From IMG/VR virus record IMGVR_UViG_3300020020_000028, positions 1-64,000 of that record: a stretch of DNA of 64,000 nucleotides; one strand, given 5' to 3'. A model generated the notes under the pieces. That model did no database searches and was not told the DNA's origin. It saw only the letters and a list, made by a program, of their open reading frames with translations. Of this stretch, positions 50,532-55,217 are shown one piece after another; position 1 is the stretch's first letter; every line of letters begins with the position of its first letter. A program made the position numbers and the translations under genes. Origin of the DNA: a virus.

Positions 50532-51050
50532 ATGGTTGAAAACACTGTAGAAGAATACGACAAGCAATCGTGGGGTCGAGGTTTGTGGGATCACGAACCA
50601 GATCGTGTCGAAGGTGAACATGCGGGATTCCCGACACTCGCTCGTCGTGGTCCGATGGGTTCGTGGTGCGGCTACGTGGCTGTGCCTCCGGGGCACTACG
50701 ATCACGGGATCTACTACGGAGAGGTCGATGGCGATCTCGATGTCCACGGGGGTCTGACGTATTCAGGCTTGTGTCATGGTGCGATCTGCCATGTCCCGAA
50801 GCCCGGTGAACCCGATAACGTCTGGTGGTTTGGGTTTGACTGCGGGCACTATCGTGACATCACGCCGGGGATGATGAAGTATCATTTCGGATCTGACGAG
50901 TATTCCACGTACAAGGATCTATCGTACGTGCAGGAAGAGATCAAGAAGCTCGCAGAGCAACTCGCAGAGCGAGCGAAGTGGGTGCGCGTCGATGTACATG
51001 CGCTCGCTCAGCGGTTGAAGGAAAAATGGACACGGGTCGCTGTCGAGTAG
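50532..51050 (+). CDS. Conserved phage hypothetical protein
   Basis: WCGYV.VP.GH, VHGGLTYS and WWFGFDCGH motifs; 3' end overlaps the first Y-like unit. Confidence 0.75.
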   Translation: MVENTVEEYDKQSWGRGLWDHEPDRVEGEHAGFPTLARRGPMGSWCGYVAVPPGHYDHGIYYGEVDGDLDVHGGLTYSGLCHGAICHVPKPGEPDNVWWFGFDCGHYRDITPGMMKYHFGSDEYSTYKDLSYVQEEIKKLAEQLAERAKWVRVDVHALAQRLKEKWTRVAVE

Positions 51051-51163
51051 GTTATCATTGCCAATGAGGAGGTCGCGGGTTCGAATCCCGTCACATGCCG
51101 TAACAGGATGTGTAGCTCAGTGGTAGAGCGCTTAAACACCTACTTACGCTCTTTATCCGTGTT
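51029..51163 (+). ncRNA. Y-RNA-like unit 1: YrlA-type permuted tRNA body plus Gly(GCC) anticodon hairpin
   Basis: Outer stem GACACGG/CCGTGTT; TCA-TTGCCAA-TGA; T-arm, closed acceptor CACAT/ATGTG, then D-arm. Confidence 0.8.
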
Positions 51164-51331
51164 ATGTTCGAAACTCTGTGTTGCCGTTGCTGCGTGAGCA
51201 TGTAAGAGACACGGATAGGGACCGCGTCACGGGCGGTTCCGATTTTATGACGTTGCAAGCCGTGATTACCCTGAGTCGCGCAAATCGTGAGGTTTGCTGG
51301 GTCTGTGGCCTATCGGCTTGGCGTCTCCAGT

Positions 51332-51473
51332 AAGACGTGGGTCGCTGTATTACGGTTCTCCTATGGGTCGCGGGTTCAAATCCCGTCATCGCGACGCCTA
51401 ACAAGCTATGCGATGTAGCTCAGTTGGTTAGAGCAATAGATAAAAGTCCGTAAGCACCTCTTATCCGCGTCTT
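51332..51473 (+). ncRNA. Y-RNA-like unit 2: YrlA-type permuted tRNA body
   Basis: Outer stem AAGACGTGG/CCGCGTCTT; T-arm (GTTCAAATC), closed acceptor CATCGC/GCGATG, then D-arm TAGCTCAGTTGGTTAGAGC. Confidence 0.8.
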
Positions 51474-51495
51474 TGTTCTTTGACAACTTAAATCA

Positions 51496-51555
51496 GTCGG
51501 AGGCGCATAGTGCGTGATGATCACACGCAGTAGGGAAACCTACCCTCCGGCACCA
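51496..51555 (+). ncRNA. D-armless mini tRNA-like RNA ending in ACCA
   Basis: GTCGGAGG/CCTCCGGC stem + ACCA; TGCGTG-ATGATCA-CACGCA; GTAGG-GAAA-CCTAC. Confidence 0.55.
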
Positions 51556-51560
51556 CTTAA

Positions 51561-51696
51561 TCCTCGGGTCGCATTGACATCGTTATCTCTTACCATACTC
51601 AAGAGGGTAGCTCAGTGGTAGAGCGTCCGATTTGTAATCGGAAGGTCGTGGGTTCGAATCCCACTCTAACGCGGTGTTGAATCACTTATCCGGGGA
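51561..51696 (+). ncRNA. Y-RNA-like unit 3: non-permuted tRNA-Thr(UGU)-like body lacking an acceptor end
   Basis: Outer stem TCCTCGG/CCGGGGA; D-arm, TCCGA-TTTGTAA-TCGGA, T-arm; acceptor stem only about 3 bp and no CCA. Confidence 0.8.
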
Positions 51697-51709
51697 GTTT
51701 TACAATTTC

Positions 51710-51779
51710 CGATTCGGGTCGATCAGATAGCGTTATCCTTAAGAGATAAAAATGCTGTCTACGTCACTTATCCGAATCG
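51710..51779 (+). ncRNA. Y-RNA-like unit 4: minimal, Leu(UAA) anticodon-loop cargo
   Basis: CGATTCGG/CCGAATCG; TTATC-CTTAAGA-GATAA. Confidence 0.75.
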
Positions 51780-51996
51780 ATTTTTCCGGGGCGGTTGATA
51801 TCAGAGTGCGAAAGCAACGCATAACGGCAGAAATGTCGGAGGACCCCGTCGCTAACTCGGGCGGGAACCCGGAAATGTGAGGTAACACAAAACCACTCGG
51901 TGCGCTCCCAACTATCGCTCTCTGGTGGAAAGTAGTGTTCGTAAGCCACGTGGGAATTAGTTCAGGCTAGGTTGCACGTGGGCCTCTTTTTGATCT

Positions 51997-52071
51997 GGGG
52001 CTATGCACCTCGCGAGAGGGGGCTGAATAAGGCGAAAGCCGGAGCGGGTGAAAATCCCGTAGGCTCCACCA
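51997..52071 (+). ncRNA. Non-canonical 75-nt tRNA-like RNA with alanine-type acceptor (G3.U70, ACCA) and no anticodon loop
   Basis: GGGGCT/GGCTCC-ACCA; GCGGG-TGAAAAT-CCCGT; two GNRA-capped hairpins. Confidence 0.55.
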
Positions 52072-52075
52072 GTCA

Positions 52076-52165
52076 GGAAGGCTGACCGAGCGGCATGGTG
52101 CCAGCTTGCTAAGCTGTGGCTTCGCAGAGATGCGATCAGGGGTTCGAGTCCCTTGCCTTCCGCCA
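52076..52165 (+). tRNA. tRNA-Ser(GCU)
   Basis: GGAAGGC/GCCTTCC-GCCA; loop TT-GCT-AA; long variable arm; GGTTCGAGTCC. Confidence 0.9.
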
Positions 52166-52170
52166 AAGTT

Positions 52171-52242
52171 TTCGACGGGTCGCTCGTGACAGGGTTATCA
52201 CTCCTAATGATTACCCCCTGCACAATTCACTTATCCGTCGAA
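52171..52242 (+). ncRNA. Y-RNA-like unit 5: minimal, Arg(CCU) anticodon-loop cargo
   Basis: TTCGACGG/CCGTCGAA; ATCA-CTCCTAA-TGAT. Confidence 0.75.
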
Positions 52243-52287
52243 CTCTCGGGGCTCTGCTCAAGGAGGTAGCATCCCCAATGATTTTGA

Positions 52288-52437
52288 ATCTCGGGTCGCA
52301 GTCGTAGAGTTATCCCAGGAACGAGTGCCCTTCGGGGCATGCGTGGTTCGAATCCCGCTCCTCTCGAATCAGTGAGAGGATGGCGAAACTGGCAGACGCG
52401 CTCGTATTTAGTTCTGCGGCGAATACTTATCCGAGAT
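52288..52437 (+). ncRNA. Y-RNA-like unit 6: permuted class II tRNA-Leu-like body
   Basis: ATCTCGG/CCGAGAT; ACGAG/CTCGT stem, variable arm TGCCC-TTCG-GGGCA, T-arm, closed acceptor TCCTCTC/GAGAGGA, Leu-type D-arm TGGCGAAACTGGCAGACGC. Confidence 0.8.
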
Positions 52438-52445
52438 GTGTTTCT

Positions 52446-52560
52446 CCACGGGTCGCGGCTGTATGGTTATCATTGGTTGAAACTCTGGCCTAAGCCGAAA
52501 GGCGTCAAGCCGGAGGGAGGTTCGAATCCTCAATATCCCATACGCACACTTTATCCGTGG
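52446..52560 (+). ncRNA. Y-RNA-like unit 7: long hairpin plus T-arm cargo
   Basis: CCACGG/CCGTGG; CTCTGGC/GCCGGAG; GAGG-TTCGAAT-CCTC. Confidence 0.75.
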
Positions 52561-52655
52561 GTTTGTAGGCAGATGAGCGCGATCTGCCGTCAGCCGGGAG
52601 AGACTACTCGTTGCGCTGGTTGCAACCATCAACGACGTTTCTCCCTTGCTGTTTC

Positions 52656-52748
52656 TCCGTGGGTCGCTGTTTGGAAGGTTATCTTTTTGCCAAAAAAAGG
52701 GAGTTGGGTGAAACCCCTGACACCCTTCTGACGATCTTTATCCACGGA
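52656..52748 (+). ncRNA. Y-RNA-like unit 8: Gly(GCC) anticodon hairpin plus T-loop-like hairpin
   Basis: TCCGTGG/CCACGGA; TTT-TTGCCAA-AAA; GGG-TGAAAC-CCC. Confidence 0.75.
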
Positions 52749-52753
52749 ACTTC

Positions 52754-52887
52754 TCAGCGGGTCGCCGGTGACGATTATCTTCTGTCGTAGGTTCGACTCC
52801 TACTCTGCTAGGCAACTAGTAGATAGCTCAGTTGGTAGAGCAAAGACGGTATCCACTCCGTTTCGTCGCTGACTCTTTATCCGCTGA
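52754..52887 (+). ncRNA. Y-RNA-like unit 9: YrlA-type permuted tRNA body plus extra hairpin
   Basis: TCAGCGG/CCGCTGA; GTAGG-TTCGACT-CCTAC, closed acceptor TCTGCTAG-GCAA-CTAGTAGA, D-arm. Confidence 0.8.
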
Positions 52888-52897
52888 ATTTTTTTCA

Positions 52898-52971
52898 ACT
52901 CAAGGCGTGGTGTTCTCTGAAAAGAGGCGCAGCTTCCGGAAGCTAGATCTGAAGTGACAGATCTCTTGAGT
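52898..52971 (+). ncRNA. Unclassified 74-nt four-way-junction RNA
   Basis: ACTCAAG/CTTGAGT closing three hairpins. Confidence 0.5.
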
Positions 52972-52977
52972 ATTTCT

Positions 52978-53045
52978 TTGACGGGTCGATGATTGAGGAT
53001 TATCTTATAACGATAAAAATCCTTAGTCGATCACTTATCCGTCAA
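52978..53045 (+). ncRNA. Y-RNA-like unit 10: minimal
   Basis: TTGACGG/CCGTCAA; TTATC-TTATAAC-GATAA, containing CT-TAT-AA (Ile(UAU)-like). Confidence 0.75.
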
Positions 53046-53055
53046 TTTCCGATTC

Positions 53056-53118
53056 TTGACGGGTCGAATGTGTAGGGTTATCTAGTTAATGATCCCTGCC
53101 GATTCACTTATCCGTCAA
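53056..53118 (+). ncRNA. Y-RNA-like unit 11: minimal
   Basis: TTGACGG/CCGTCAA; GTCGAATG box; ATC-TAGTTAAT-GAT. Confidence 0.75.
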
Positions 53119-53132
53119 CTCAAGATCGATAC

Positions 53133-53203
53133 GTCCGGGTCGATAGGGTAGGGTTACCATGATCACCAATCATCCACAGCCCTGCTTGACAACTTATCCG
53201 GAC
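53133..53203 (+). ncRNA. Y-RNA-like unit 12: minimal
   Basis: GTCCGG/CCGGAC; ATGA-TCACCAA-TCAT. Confidence 0.75.
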
Positions 53204-53210
53204 ACTGTTA

Positions 53211-53324
53211 GTAGAGGGTCGCGGTTTTATCGGTTATCAAGGTTCGACTCCTTCCTCACCCAACTCTGTGGGTGGGGAAGCCTGAAATGGTCAGGCACTC
53301 CGATGAACAATCTTTATCCTCTAC
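53211..53324 (+). ncRNA. Y-RNA-like unit 13: YrlA-type permuted tRNA body
   Basis: GTAGAGG/CCTCTAC; AAGG-TTCGACT-CCTT, closed acceptor CCTCACCCA/TGGGTGGGG, D-arm GCCT..TGG..AGGC. Confidence 0.8.
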
Positions 53325-53343: not shown

Positions 53344-55071
53344 ATGACAGTTAACTACGCGAAGCACTACAACAAGAAGCAGACGCCGCAGAGCGAGAAG
53401 ATTCCGGGCGAGAAGCAGGTGGCGAACAACGCTGGAGGCTACGTCTACGAGGTAGACAAGTGGCAGCGTCTCGCACGGTTCTTGATCCTCGGCACGGACG
53501 GCGGCACGTACTACGTCAGCGAGCGAAAGCTCACGCGTGAGAATGCACAGGTTGTCGAAGCCTGTCTCGCGACGGACGGCGGACGTACGATTGCGGAGAT
53601 CATCGAGATCTCTCAGACTGGTCGTGCGCCGAAGAACGATCAGGCGGTCTTTGCACTGGCGCTTGCAGCCTCCGTGCAGGTTCCGGACGCTAGTGGTGTG
53701 TCCGCAGAGTCGATCCGTAGCATGGCGCTCGATGCACTGCCGAAGGTCTGCCGGATCCCGACGCATCTCTTTCAGTTCATGACGGCGATCAAGGCGATGC
53801 GTGGTAGCTCGCGTATGCTCCGTCGTGCACTCGGAGAGTGGTACTCGCAGTGGGACGCAAATAAGCTCGCCTACGAACTGGTGAAGTACCAGTCGCGCGA
53901 GGGATGGGCGAATCGTGACGTGCTGCGTCTCGCGCACCCGAAGATGTCCGCAGAACATCAGGCGGTGGTGCGATGGGCTGTCTGCGGCCATGAAGCTGCG
54001 GCATCTCCTGGCCCTCGTGAGGTGAAGCGCGCGAAGGAAGATACGCGCACGTCGCGCATCTATCAGCCGGTTGCTGATGTGCCGAACATCATCGCGGCCT
54101 TCGAGTTGGCCAAGACGAAGCCGCCGGTTGAATTGCTTGTGCGTTTGATCCGCGAGCATGGTCTGACGCGAGAGATGCTGCCGACGGAGTGTCTGAACGA
54201 GGTCGCGGTATGGGAGGCATTGCTCGAAAAGATGCCGCTCACGGCGATGATCCGCAATCTCGGCAAGATGTCTTCGTTGGGGATCTTCGAGCCGTTGAAG
54301 TCCAGCGCATGGTCCAAGCACGTGGTCGAGAGGATCACCTCTCAGGAGAACTTGCGGAAGTCTCGCGTGCATCCGCTGTTCATCTTGAATGCGATGAAGA
54401 CCTATGCGCAGGGCCACGGTGACAAGGGGTCGTTGAAGTGGACCCCGGCTGCGAAGATCGTGGACGCGCTCGATGCGGCGTTCTACGAAGCCTTCGGCAA
54501 CGTGGAGCCCACCGGCAAAAACGTGATGCTGGCGCTCGACGTGAGTGGATCGATGGGTTCGCTCATCGGTGGCACGAGTCTGTCCTGCCGTGAGGCGTGT
54601 GCGGCACTTGCACTCGTCACGCAGGCTGTCGAAGACAACGTGCAGATCGTTGGGTTCACCAACGGCGGGTCTGTGGCTCGACGTTCGCAGTGGGGTGGAT
54701 ACCTGAGCGGGATTTCTCCGCTCAAGATCTCGAAGCGTCAGCGTCTCGATGACGTAGTGAAGTACATCGCTGGACTGAACTTCGGAGGCACGGACTGCGC
54801 CCTGCCGATGATCTACGCGGAGAGCGAGAAGCTCGATGTCGATGGGTTCGTGGTCTACACGGACAACGAGACGTGGGCGGGAGATATCCACCCGTCGCAG
54901 GCGCTGCGAAGCTACCGAGCGAAGCAGAACAAGCCGGAGGCGGCACAGGTAGTCGTGGGCATGACGGCGAGTGGATTCACGATTGCTTCTCCTGATGATC
55001 CTAGAACACTTGATGTGGTAGGCTTCGATCTCGCCACTCCGACGGCGATTTCGGCGTTTATCAAAGGGTAA
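53344..55071 (+). CDS. rsr: Ro60/Rsr orthologue (TROVE domain + vWA domain)
   Basis: NNAGGY...RLARFLILGTDGGTYY, LVKYQSREGW..RDVLRLAHP, MPLTAMIRNLGKM, vWA MIDAS DVSGSM, GGTDCALPM, TDNETW, DVVGFD. ATG 53344 follows GAAAGG. Confidence 0.95.
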   Translation: MTVNYAKHYNKKQTPQSEKIPGEKQVANNAGGYVYEVDKWQRLARFLILGTDGGTYYVSERKLTRENAQVVEACLATDGGRTIAEIIEISQTGRAPKNDQAVFALALAASVQVPDASGVSAESIRSMALDALPKVCRIPTHLFQFMTAIKAMRGSSRMLRRALGEWYSQWDANKLAYELVKYQSREGWANRDVLRLAHPKMSAEHQAVVRWAVCGHEAAASPGPREVKRAKEDTRTSRIYQPVADVPNIIAAFELAKTKPPVELLVRLIREHGLTREMLPTECLNEVAVWEALLEKMPLTAMIRNLGKMSSLGIFEPLKSSAWSKHVVERITSQENLRKSRVHPLFILNAMKTYAQGHGDKGSLKWTPAAKIVDALDAAFYEAFGNVEPTGKNVMLALDVSGSMGSLIGGTSLSCREACAALALVTQAVEDNVQIVGFTNGGSVARRSQWGGYLSGISPLKISKRQRLDDVVKYIAGLNFGGTDCALPMIYAESEKLDVDGFVVYTDNETWAGDIHPSQALRSYRAKQNKPEAAQVVVGMTASGFTIASPDDPRTLDVVGFDLATPTAISAFIKG

Positions 55072-55097: not shown

Positions 55098-55142
55098 GCG
55101 GGATTCGCTGAGGTGAGGAGCCTCGGCGGTCCCGCATCTTTT
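55098..55142 (+). terminator. Hairpin with short U-tract after Ro60 (terminator or processing site)
   Basis: GCGGGAT..CGCTGAGG/CCTCGGCG..GTCCCGC followed by ATCTTTT. Confidence 0.45.
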
Positions 55143-55217
55143 GGCCGGTAGCTCAGTTGGTAGAGCGCACGGCTGTTAACCGTGTGGTCGCAAGTTCGAA
55201 TCTTGCTCGGCCAGCCA
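55142..55217 (+). tRNA. tRNA-Asn(GUU)
   Basis: 76 nt; TGGCCGG/TCGGCCA-GCCA; CACGG-CTGTTAA-CCGTG; canonical D and T arms. Confidence 0.93.

What the first reader, a model, noticed from the sequence alone, without database searches (positions are those of the whole stretch)
51052..53175. Y-like units display different anticodon stem-loops near a fixed position: candidate anticodon-nuclease decoy panel
Seen: right after the conserved GTTATC box, several units form a hairpin with a 7-nt loop matching the anticodon-loop consensus Y-U-NNN-R-A. These are UU-GCC-AA (Gly; units 1 and 8), CU-UAA-GA (Leu; unit 4) and CU-CCU-AA (Arg; unit 5). Unit 3 carries UU-UGU-AA (Thr) further inside a tRNA body. Imperfect cases: CU-UAU-AA (Ile; unit 10, stem register shifted), GUU-AA (Asn-like; unit 11), UC-ACC-AA (unit 12), and TTGAAA (Ser/Phe-like; unit 7). 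Units 4, 5 and 10-12 consist only of scaffold plus this hairpin. Established: described YrlA RNAs lack an anticodon loop, and anti-phage nucleases such as PrrC, RloC, VapC toxins and PARIS AriB cut specific tRNAs in the anticodon stem-loop. Inference: Ro60-stabilised, non-chargeable anticodon baits titrate or trap tRNA-targeting defence nucleases, or act as sensors of them.
Basis: partly seen in the sequence, partly recalled or inferred. Interest (0 to 1): 0.93.

Follow-up and report, generated by a model that had tools for sequence, protein, structure and literature searches.

The report
Anticodon-arm mimics on phage Y RNAs
A soil phage carries 13 small Y-RNA-like genes in front of its Ro60 gene, and about half of them display a hairpin built like a tRNA anticodon arm; related phages and bacteria share this feature, but its role is untested.

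Summary
Window 51029-53324 (+) has 13 units with one scaffold (stem-GGGUCG-N10-11-GUUAUC ... CUUAUCC-stem), directly upstream of a TROVE+vWA Ro60 gene.

Units 4, 5 and 10 are minimal hairpins capped by a 4-5 bp stem and a 7-nt loop (CUUAAGA, CUCCUAA, UUAUAAC). Unit 3 holds a complete tRNA-Thr anticodon arm. Units 1 and 8 carry UUGCCAA on weak 3-bp stems. Units 7, 11 and 12 do not fit.

The pattern is not chance. In 185 distinct homologous tRNA-like units, 74 have a 7-nt-loop hairpin at this site (17 expected). Across 67 distinct hairpins, U33 is 88%, R37 88% and A38 79%, with 34 different middle triplets. The segment is mostly 20-21 nt, which matches tRNA positions 28-48. Real tRNAs align locally to this part of the model.

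So the hairpin is the anticodon-arm equivalent of a permuted tRNA mimic. Chen et al. 2014 drew it as a "V" stem-loop. GUUAUC contains the UUAUC motif known from metazoan Y RNAs.

The nuclease-decoy function is untested. Hughes et al. 2020 floated the same idea for YrlA. Unnatural A34 triplets and a dominant Asn-like loop argue against a strict cognate panel.

This scan noted similar "handle plus anticodon arm" arrays beside Ro60-like genes in other phages; I did not check those.

The parts
51029..51163 (+). Unit 1: Y scaffold plus permuted tRNA-like module (anticodon-arm-like hairpin, variable loop, T arm, closed acceptor hairpin, D arm)
   Evidence: Rfam YrlA 38 bits, below the gathering score. 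R1 110.7 bits. Aligns with a mycobacteriophage YrlA and five metagenomic homologs.
51055..51067 (+). U1 hairpin TCA-TTGCCAA-TGA (GCC triplet); 3-bp stem
   Evidence: Homologous hairpins show compensatory stem changes. Not recovered in the U1 minimum-free-energy fold.
51334..51471 (+). Unit 2: YrlA-like, no anticodon-arm-like hairpin
   Evidence: Rfam YrlA 43.2 bits. R1 63 bits. The segment between box and T arm is only 11 nt.
51561..51696 (+). Unit 3: Y scaffold carrying a linear tRNA-Thr(UGU) body with a truncated acceptor stem; true anticodon arm at 51626-51642
   Evidence: Rfam tRNA 56.8 bits, model positions 6-65..
51711..51778 (+). Unit 4: minimal unit; UUAUC-CUUAAGA-GAUAA at 51733-51749
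   Evidence: Minimum-free-energy fold. R1 32.1 bits.
52172..52241 (+). Unit 5: minimal unit; AUCA-CUCCUAA-UGAU at 52197-52211
52288..52437 (+). Unit 6: Y scaffold plus class-II-like permuted tRNA module (long variable arm, T arm, acceptor hairpin, Leu/Ser-type D arm); no closed anticodon loop
   Evidence: Sequence reading. R1 44.4 bits.
52445..52561 (+). Unit 7: scaffold, small 5-nt-loop hairpin (52470-52480), long arm and T arm
52656..52748 (+). Unit 8: scaffold plus UUGCCAA in a U/A-rich stem (52682-52699) plus a degenerate T-like hairpin
   Evidence: The only unit not hit by R1 at E<=0.01.
52754..52887 (+). Unit 9: YrlA-like, no hairpin before the T arm
   Evidence: Rfam YrlA 45.6 bits. R1 55.6 bits.
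52978..53045 (+). Unit 10: minimal unit; UUAUC-UUAUAAC-GAUAA at 53000-53016 (AUA, not a natural anticodon)
   Evidence: Weak Rfam hit to nematode sbRNA family RF01656.
53056..53118 (+). Unit 11: minimal unit, 8-nt loop UAGUUAAU
   Evidence: RF01656 E=0.053.
53132..53204 (+). Unit 12: minimal unit, GUUACC box, 5-nt loop CACCA
53211..53324 (+). Unit 13: scaffold with the T arm directly after the box
53344..55071 (+). Ro60 (TROVE plus Ro60 vWA), presumed protein partner
   Evidence: Pfam PF05731 E=7.9e-50 and PF25045 E=4.1e-55.
52076..52165 (+). Genuine tRNA-Ser(GCU) inside the array
   Evidence: ARAGORN and Rfam.
55142..55217 (+). Genuine tRNA-Asn(GUU) just after Ro60. Its anticodon arm plus variable loop plus T arm aligns locally to the Y-unit model.
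   Evidence: R1 local hit 55169-55206, model positions 26-63.

Best explanation
These are Y RNAs of the bacterial and phage YrlA/YrlB kind, presumed partners of the adjacent Ro60. The hairpin that starts in the conserved UUAUC motif is the anticodon-arm equivalent of a tRNA mimic.

Shown here:
- The units share the Y scaffold.
- In tRNA-like units the order is scaffold 5' strand, then a 4-bp stem (plus an A27xG43 position) with a 7-nt loop, then a 5-nt AGGUC-type variable loop, T arm, closed acceptor hairpin, D arm, a linker, and the scaffold 3' strand. This is a tRNA permuted between positions 26 and 27.
- The loop keeps C/A32, U33, R37 and A/C38, while positions 34-36 vary.
- In minimal units only the scaffold and this arm remain.

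Inferred, not shown:
- Ro60 holds the scaffold.
- The exposed arm (with or without the tRNA elbow) is read by proteins that recognise anticodon loops, such as host anticodon nucleases or tRNA-modifying or repair enzymes.
- The particle therefore acts as a competitive bait or a tether in the phage-host contest over tRNAs.

My odds: identity as a Y RNA with an anticodon-arm mimic about 0.85. Bait or tether for anticodon-loop readers about 0.4. Specifically a nuclease decoy about 0.2.
For: - Ro60 lies directly downstream on the same strand.
- Thirteen units share GGGUCG, GUUAUC and UUAUCC boxes and covarying terminal stems.
- There are sub-threshold Rfam YrlA hits on U1, U2 and U9.
- Covariance model R1, built from 7 units, finds 124 + 54 + 158 hits, mostly beside or within a few kb of Ro60 genes in phage contigs and bacterial MAG contigs.
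- The hairpin helix shows both-side changes at all 4 pairs.
- A 7-nt loop is the mode: 74 of 185 units, against 17 in shuffles.
- Loop profile over 67 distinct hairpins: C32 75%, U33 88%, A37 81% plus G37 7%, A38 79%, with 34 different triplets. Real tRNAs from the same loci look the same.
- The segment from box to T stem peaks at 20-21 nt, which equals tRNA positions 28-48.
- Real tRNAs hit model positions 26-63 locally.
- Many loops are identical to real anticodon loops found in the same loci.
- Published background: the YrlA tRNA-like domain is recognised by tRNA enzymes (PMC4201824). A phage Ro60 binds phage Y-like RNAs and host PNPase (PMC12135203). A competitive-inhibitor role was suggested in PMC7790460.
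Against: - No expression, binding or cleavage data exist for this phage.
- About 60% of tRNA-like units and about 70% of minimal units in homologs have another structure, or none, at this site. In the window 6 or 7 of 13 units lack the hairpin.
- U1 and U8 have 3-bp stems and could collapse to triloops.
- Some G37 loops in homologs are equally well cUNCGg tetraloops (CUUCGGA, CUACGGA).
- A34 triplets that natural bacterial tRNAs avoid occur (AUA, AUU, ACU, AUG).
- The published cloverleaf treats this hairpin as a variable arm, and no 3D structure decides between the two readings.
- The conserved loop flanks could instead contact Ro60 itself.
Confidence: 0.45

Rival explanations
1. Strict version of the first reader's idea. 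The array is a panel of cognate decoys: each unit mimics one tRNA species and titrates, traps or senses the anticodon nuclease that targets that species.
For: - Different triplets sit on one scaffold within one array: GCC, UGU, UAA, CCU and AUA in the window, and different triplets in 10 of 11 other arrays.
- Many loops equal natural anticodon loops such as CUGUUAA, CUUUUAA, CUGCUAA, CUUCUAA and CUGAUAA.
- A phosphoesterase-like gene and an RlaP nucleotidyltransferase flank the array.
- The literature suggests YrlA may inhibit an anticodon nuclease (PMC7790460).
Against: - Within-array triplet diversity equals random expectation: 2 identical pairs of 26, against 1.1 expected.
- Unnatural A34 triplets are present.
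- One loop (Asn-like) dominates across distant loci, which suggests one conserved specificity or simple ancestry rather than panels.
- Most units in most arrays lack the hairpin.
- RlaP co-occurs with Ro60 in only 4 of 71 phage loci by tblastn.
- No nuclease partner is identified.
Confidence: 0.15
2. The hairpin is only a structural cap or a Ro60 contact. It closes the upper stem next to the UUAUC motif. Its conserved flanks serve folding or Ro60 binding, and the likeness to anticodon loops is inherited from a tRNA ancestor without present tRNA-related function.
For: - UUAUC is invariant even where it is not paired. It is a conserved motif of metazoan Y RNAs and sbRNAs (PMC4726728), which suggests protein recognition of this region.
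- It lies one helical turn (10-11 nt) above the GGGUCG box.
- Middle triplets drift freely, including unnatural ones.
- Many units have other loop sizes.
Against: - Stems have diverged completely (UCGC/GCGA, UCUA/UAGA, UCAC/GUGA, UUAUC/GAUAA and others), yet U33, R37 and A38 stay near 80-90%. That implies selection on exactly the anticodon-loop positions.
- Exact tRNA spacing to the T arm is retained.
Confidence: 0.25
3. RYPER-like tether. The units recruit host PNPase or another RNA-decay or repair enzyme to Ro60, as shown for Deinococcus Yrn1 and the Thermus phage phiLo Yrl RNAs. The anticodon-like loop has no special role.
For: - Published complexes of Ro60, Y RNA and PNPase, including for a phage Ro60 (PMC12135203; PMC4201824).
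- An A-rich single-stranded tract follows the hairpin in minimal units (GAUAAAAAU in U4 and U10).
Against: It does not explain the conservation of loop length and flanks, or the tRNA-exact spacing. No PNPase data exist for this family.
Confidence: 0.1
4. The tRNA-like units are precursors of working two-piece tRNAs. RNase P cleavage in the acceptor hairpin and CCA addition (as seen for M. smegmatis YrlA) would yield a chargeable molecule that now also has an anticodon arm.
For: - Chen et al. [quoted passage not shown]
- The units here contain every tRNA arm.
Against: - The acceptor hairpins are short and mismatched.
- The scaffold insertion at positions 26/27 is large.
- Minimal units have no acceptor at all.
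- Unnatural anticodons occur.
Confidence: 0.04

Closest known systems
YrlA (Rfam RF02553), the tRNA-mimicking Y RNA of bacteria and mycobacteriophages (Chen et al. 2014, PMC4201824; structure in Wang et al. 2018, bioRxiv 10.1101/312249)
   Same: - Encoded next to Ro60 on the same strand.
- A Ro-binding stem with a GNCGA-like 5' motif.
- Permuted order: T arm, closed acceptor hairpin, D arm.
- A stem-loop upstream of the T arm ('V') that begins at a conserved YUAY.
- U1 is 78% identical over about 100 nt to the unit upstream of Ro in cluster C mycobacteriophages.
   Different: - The window units score 38-46 bits, below the Rfam gathering score of 69.
- The Rfam model has no hairpin at this site; U1's hairpin aligns as an insertion.
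- Solved Salmonella YrlA has no anticodon loop, and its scaffold is the anticodon stem.
- Here the hairpin has anticodon-arm length, flanks and spacing.
- There are 13 units rather than 1-4.
YrlB / Yrn2-type Y RNAs (long hairpin with a small loop; PMC4201824)
   Same: The minimal units (U4, U5, U10-12) are long bulged hairpins that carry only the Ro-binding scaffold.
   Different: The published ones are described as having small pyrimidine-rich loops. Here a subset has 7-nt C-U-NNN-A-A loops on a UUAUC/GAUAA stem. I did not compare sequences directly.
Deinococcus radiodurans Yrn1
   Same: It is drawn with D-like, 'anticodon' and T arms in native order and the scaffold on the acceptor side (PMC4201824). 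Window U3 has that topology.
   Different: Yrn1's 'anticodon loop' has 6 nt and its D arm is doubtful. U3 is a near-perfect tRNA-Thr(UGU) body.
Metazoan Y RNAs and nematode sbRNAs
   Same: - GGUCCGA-like 5' strand with a bulged helix.
- A conserved UUAUC motif at the start of the loop domain (PMC4726728).
- U10 and U11 give weak Rfam hits to sbRNA family RF01656.
   Different: - They have no tRNA-like module.
- In metazoa the UUAUC motif is linked to DNA replication initiation, not to an anticodon-like hairpin.
- The Rfam hits are below threshold.
Thermus phage phiLo Ro60 with Yrl1/Yrl2 (PMC12135203)
   Same: A phage Ro60 with Y-like RNAs encoded upstream. Binding to Ro60 and host PNPase is shown.
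   Different: Only two RNAs, with no reported tRNA or anticodon-like module. I did not compare the sequences.
Phage tRNA-based counter-defence (phage tRNAs that replace or resist cleavage by host anticodon nucleases; my own knowledge of T4/T5 work)
   Same: Phage-encoded tRNA-shaped RNAs placed among tRNA genes. Anticodon loops are the contested surface.
   Different: Those are functional, chargeable tRNAs. The units here have no free acceptor end and sit on a Ro60 handle.

Membership tests
Y RNA / YrlA (RF02553) | Encoded within about 4 kb of a Ro60/TROVE gene, on the same strand | tested here: met
   Units at 51029-53324 (+). Ro60 at 53344-55071 (+), with TROVE and Ro60-vWA domains.
Y RNA / YrlA (RF02553) | 5' Ro-binding motif (GNCGAAN0-1G in YrlA, GGUCCGA in metazoa) in a terminal bulged helix | tested here: met
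   GGGUCG(A/C) is invariant and pairs with CUUAUCC plus covarying flanks. Actual Ro60 binding was not tested.
Y RNA / YrlA (RF02553) | tRNA-like T arm, closed acceptor hairpin and D arm in permuted order | tested here: met
   Met for U1, U2 and U9, and for U6 in a class-II form. Not met for minimal units U4, U5 and U10-12.
Y RNA / YrlA (RF02553) | Score at or above the Rfam gathering threshold (69 bits) | tested here: not met
   Best scores are 45.6, 43.2 and 38.0 bits. The family here is a divergent relative.
Y RNA / YrlA (RF02553) | Bound and stabilised by Ro60 in vivo | not testable with these tools
   No RNA data set is listed for this sequence.
tRNA anticodon stem-loop (structural mimic) | 7-nt loop closed by a roughly 5-bp stem | tested here: met
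   - U3, U4 and U10 have 5 bp; U5 has 4 bp; U1 and U8 have only 3 bp.
- In homologs 7 nt is the modal loop length, and the stem is 4 bp plus an A27xG43 position.
tRNA anticodon stem-loop (structural mimic) | U33 and purine 37 conserved while positions 34-36 vary | tested here: met
   U33 88%, R37 88%, A38 79%, and 34 triplets among 67 distinct hairpins. Shuffles give 13% for U33 plus R37.
tRNA anticodon stem-loop (structural mimic) | Correct position relative to the variable loop and T arm | tested here: met
   The box-to-T-stem segment peaks at 20-21 nt, equal to positions 28-48, and is followed by an AGGUC-type loop. Real tRNAs align locally to model positions 26-63.
tRNA anticodon stem-loop (structural mimic) | U-turn fold and anticodon-loop modifications | not testable with these tools
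   This needs structure probing or modification mapping.
Class II tRNA variable arm (the published 'V' reading) | Stem-loop with a 3-5 nt loop joined almost directly to the T stem | tested here: not met
   The loop is 7 nt with anticodon-type flanks, and a full 5-nt variable loop still follows it. The definition of a class II variable arm is from my own knowledge.
Anticodon-nuclease decoy / inhibitor | Binds or competes for an anticodon nuclease and protects cognate tRNA | not testable with these tools
   No nuclease partner is identified. Only indirect sequence evidence exists.
Metazoan Y RNA / sbRNA | UUAUC motif at the stem-loop boundary | tested here: met
   (G)UUAUC/UUACC is invariant in the alignments. 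The motif is described in PMC4726728. Rfam sbRNA hits are below threshold, so this is a shared motif, not membership.

The most novel reading that the evidence does not exclude
Ro60 plus arrays of Y-type handles form a phage (and bacterial) system that displays interchangeable anticodon arms as baits. Each unit would engage a different anticodon-loop-reading enzyme, above all host tRNA-cleaving defence nucleases. The 13-unit array would then be a multi-specific counter-defence sponge or sensor. A corollary is that many YrlA RNAs are complete tRNA mimics whose 'V arm' is really an anticodon arm.
Probability: 0.2. Interest if true: 0.85.

Novelty: new variant of a known kind. Interest (0 to 1): 0.62.

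Why it matters
The role of the tRNA-like domain of bacterial and phage Y RNAs has been open since 2014.

If the hairpin next to the UUAUC motif is an anticodon-arm mimic with free choice of triplet, the published speculation that Y RNAs interfere with anticodon nucleases becomes directly testable with defined units, loop swaps and known nucleases.

It would also change the accepted cloverleaf of many YrlA RNAs, from variable arm to anticodon arm and from a break in the anticodon loop to a break at positions 26/27.

Finally, the invariant UUAUC motif links phage Y RNAs to metazoan Y RNAs and sbRNAs more closely than the Ro-binding helix alone does.

Tried and rejected
- Rfam at gathering thresholds found no Y RNA in the window, only tRNAs. 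YrlA appears only below threshold.
- The DNA pattern scan of IMG/VR: by my estimate about 200 chance matches are expected. I kept only matches with complementary flanks. L082 and L112 are tandem-repeat artefacts and were dropped.
- RNAalifold on 7 units did not call the hairpin, because of a 1-nt register shift in U1 and a gap in L137. I added it by hand and tested it separately.
- Alternative long-range pairing of the post-D linker CUUAA with the 3' half of the hairpin: it can be drawn for L086 and U1 but not for L019, so it was not pursued.
- G36-G37 co-occurrence as a tRNA hallmark: rejected as evidence, because several such loops are cUNCGg tetraloops (and inspection).
- Within-array triplet diversity: no different from random.
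- Co-occurrence of the window's neighbour genes with Ro60: RlaP in 4 of 71 phage loci, the phosphoesterase in 3 Ro60-anchored and 1 pattern-derived phage locus. This is not a general linkage at this sensitivity.
- Promoter and terminator scan: no more sites than in shuffles.
- Sequencing runs: no RNA holder listed; only soil metagenome DNA runs hold the stretch.
- The reviews PMC10870794 and PMC6047535 are not held. I therefore cannot exclude that the anticodon-like nature of the V loop is mentioned there.
- No structure or complex prediction was attempted, because no RNA 3D tool is available.

Full report
**What is there**

The window is part of a 73,960-bp IMG/VR phage record. Soil metagenome runs hold the stretch. 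On the + strand, 51029-53324, I count 13 units. Each has a 5-9 bp terminal stem, an invariant GGGUCG 5' box, a (G)UUAUC/UUACC box 10-11 nt later, variable cargo, and a CUUAUCC 3' box that pairs back to the 5' box.

The next gene, 53344-55071, is a Ro60 protein: TROVE at E=7.9e-50 and Ro60-vWA at E=4.1e-55. A real tRNA-Ser(GCU) lies inside the array, and a real tRNA-Asn(GUU) follows Ro60.

Rfam gives only sub-threshold YrlA hits on U1, U2 and U9 (38-46 bits; gathering score 69). It gives weak hits of U10 and U11 to a nematode stem-bulge RNA family. These are therefore Y-RNA-like genes of a divergent subfamily.

**The observation**

- U4, U5 and U10 fold as long bulged hairpins. Each is capped by a 4-5 bp stem and a 7-nt loop: CUUAAGA, CUCCUAA and UUAUAAC.
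- U3 contains a complete tRNA-Thr(UGU) body in native order with a canonical 5-bp/7-nt anticodon arm. Its acceptor stem is replaced by the scaffold.
- U1 and U8 carry UUGCCAA on 3-bp stems. They could also close to a GCC triloop, and the whole-unit folds do not recover these hairpins.
- U7, U11 and U12 have 5-, 8- and 5-nt loops and do not fit.
- U2, U9 and U13 have no hairpin at this site, and U6 is opened in its anticodon loop.

**Homologs of the minimal units**

The Ro60 protein finds 71 phage loci in IMG/VR and 363 GenBank phages, mostly actinobacteriophages.

A loop-blind DNA pattern (5' box, UUAUC box, 3' box) found further units. Many of them lie beside Ro60 genes that were not part of the query.

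- In 71 distinct units, a hairpin anchored in the UUAUC box with a stem of 4 bp or more and a 7-nt loop occurs in 21. Shuffles give 4.4. Other loop lengths are enriched only about two-fold.
- Of those 21, 14 have U at loop position 2 and a purine at position 6, against about 12% expected.
- A second, model-derived set of 58 minimal units gave 16 such hairpins (2.4 expected), and 13 of the 16 carry U33 plus R37.
- About a quarter of minimal units therefore share the feature. The rest have other caps.

**Homologs of the tRNA-like units**

I built a covariance model from U1, a mycobacteriophage (Bread) unit and five metagenomic units. It recovered 124 + 54 hits in phage loci and 158 in 80 bacterial MAG loci, mostly beside or within a few kb of Ro60. 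It also recovered 12 of the 13 window units.

In the raw sequences, the box GGUUA is followed in most high-scoring units by the pattern (U/C)C-NN, 7 nt, NN-GA, G, AGGUC, T arm.

An independent hairpin finder ran on the 185 distinct units that have a T arm.

- It finds a 7-nt loop in 74 of them. The next most common loop length is 3 nt, in 19 units. Shuffles give 17.0 for 7 nt.
- Over 67 distinct hairpins the profile is C32 75%, U33 88%, A37 81% plus G37 7%, and A38 79%.
- Positions 34-36 use all four bases and show 34 different triplets.
- Real tRNAs from the same loci show the same profile.
- All four stem pairs show changes on both sides (this alignment is model-fitted).
- The box-to-T-stem segment is 20-21 nt in 95 of 185 units, which equals tRNA positions 28-48.
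- Real tRNAs, including the window's tRNA-Asn, align locally to exactly this part of the model, positions 26-63.

I conclude that the hairpin is homologous or analogous to the anticodon arm. These units are tRNA mimics permuted between positions 26 and 27, not in the anticodon loop.

**Relation to what is published**

- Chen et al. [quoted passage not shown] They noted that a conserved YUAY begins it, and they equated it with the tRNA variable arm.
- The solved Salmonella YrlA lacks it and "lacks the anticodon loop" (bioRxiv 10.1101/312249).
- In the papers I could read, I found no statement that this hairpin has anticodon-loop features. Two reviews were not available.
- The GUUAUC box contains the UUAUC motif reported as conserved in vertebrate Y RNAs and nematode sbRNAs (PMC4726728, citing Kowalski 2015).
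- The idea that YrlA might competitively inhibit an anticodon nuclease is in Hughes et al. 2020 (PMC7790460).
- A phage Ro60 that binds phage Y-like RNAs and host PNPase was described in 2025 (PMC12135203).

**Function**

Nothing here tests function directly.

Points in favour of a tRNA-related role:
- Selection acts on exactly the anticodon-loop flanks, although the stems have diverged completely.
- Many loops are identical to real anticodon loops from the same loci: CUGUUAA, CUUUUAA, CUGCUAA, CUUCUAA, CUGAUAA and CUUCCAA.
- Ro60 loci are often set among tRNA genes. ARAGORN tRNAs per 10 kb in the bacterial MAG loci.
- A phosphoesterase-like gene and an RlaP nucleotidyltransferase flank the window's array.

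Points against a strict panel of cognate decoys:
- Triplets that natural tRNAs avoid occur (AUA in U10; AUU, ACU and AUG elsewhere).
- The Asn-like loop dominates across distant loci (10 of 67).
- Triplets within arrays are no more diverse than random draws.
- Most units lack the hairpin.
- RlaP is rarely linked to Ro60.

My preferred reading is a Ro60-held tRNA or anticodon-arm mimic that is read by anticodon-loop-binding proteins, as a bait or a tether. A nuclease decoy is one plausible case of this.

Rivals are:
- a purely structural or Ro60-contacting cap;
- a PNPase tether;
- at long odds, a precursor of a chargeable two-piece tRNA.

**Verdict**

The structural interpretation is supported, and it refines the published YrlA cloverleaf. 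The decoy function remains a hypothesis that is now easy to test.

Earlier notes of this scan describe similar "handle plus anticodon arm" arrays next to more distant Ro60-like genes in other phages. I did not check those.

Noticed in passing
window 51997-52071: A roughly 75-nt tRNA-sized element lies 4 nt before tRNA-Ser. It starts GGGGCU and ends GGCUCCACCA, which gives G1-C72, G2-C71, G3.U70, discriminator A and an encoded CCA. It has a T-like arm GCGGG-UGAAAAU-CCCGU. Rfam gives only an 8.7-bit tmRNA hit, and ARAGORN calls neither a tRNA nor a tmRNA. It may be an alanine-type minihelix or a tmRNA-like tRNA domain.
   Followed up: partly
window 51561-51696 (U3) and 52288-52437 (U6): Two units carry tRNA bodies joined to the scaffold in other ways. 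U3 is a linear tRNA-Thr(UGU) attached through its acceptor side. U6 is a class-II (long variable arm, Leu/Ser-type D arm) body opened in the anticodon loop. The same handle therefore accepts at least three different tRNA permutations.
   Followed up: partly
L072 3073-3923; L244 5100-6019; L226 1858-2590; L184 1958-2885: Multi-unit arrays are common next to Ro60: 7 units in phage locus L072, and 5-6 in several bacterial MAG loci. The 13 units in the window are the most in about 245 loci examined.
   Followed up: partly
loci L169-L248 (bacterial MAG contigs with Ro60): ARAGORN tRNAs outside Y units in 528 kb, or 9 per 10 kb, in 46 of 80 loci. These Ro60/Y loci therefore sit inside dense tRNA gene arrays. 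Some may be prophage or phage contigs binned into MAGs. The taxa named are mostly Gemmatimonadota, Myxococcota, Armatimonadota and Chloroflexota.
   Followed up: no
window 55142-55217; L029 3425-3497; L068 2239-2312; L013 2331-2368: A genuine tRNA-Asn(GUU) gene recurs close to phage Ro60 genes. The commonest Y-unit loop is the Asn loop CUGUUAA. The D arm of the window's tRNA-Asn is almost the same as the D arm of the Y units. This hints that the tRNA-like module descends from a tRNA-Asn-like gene.
   Followed up: no
window 51750-51754 and 53017-53021; also L069 1160-1227 and L128: In minimal units the hairpin UUAUC-N7-GAUAA is followed by a run of A (GAUAAAAAU, GAUAAAAC). This leaves a 3-nt A bulge opposite the box. 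It is conserved in several unrelated phages, and its function is unknown.
   Followed up: no
window 51034-51056 and all units: The spacing and sequence of the 5' strand (GGGUCG, then 10-11 nt, then GUUAUC) parallel human Y RNAs as I recall them (GGUCCGA, then about 9 nt, then GUUAUC in hY1 and hY4). The likeness between phage and metazoan Y RNAs would then extend beyond the Ro-binding helix. The human sequences are from memory and were not checked here.
   Followed up: no
window 51164-51333, 52562-52655, 52888-52977: The longer spacers between units contain further stable hairpins. One is terminator-like, at 51218-51240. None carries the scaffold boxes. Their role, for example in processing or transcription units, is unknown.
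   Followed up: no
L168 1340-1470 and 1640-1740 (Mycobacterium phage Bread): Beside the known YrlA-like unit, the mycobacteriophage has two further units with a variant scaffold (GGCCGA ... CGGUUACC/CGGUUAUC ... CAUGUCUGC). They lie under ORFs annotated as hypothetical proteins 226 and 227.
   Followed up: no
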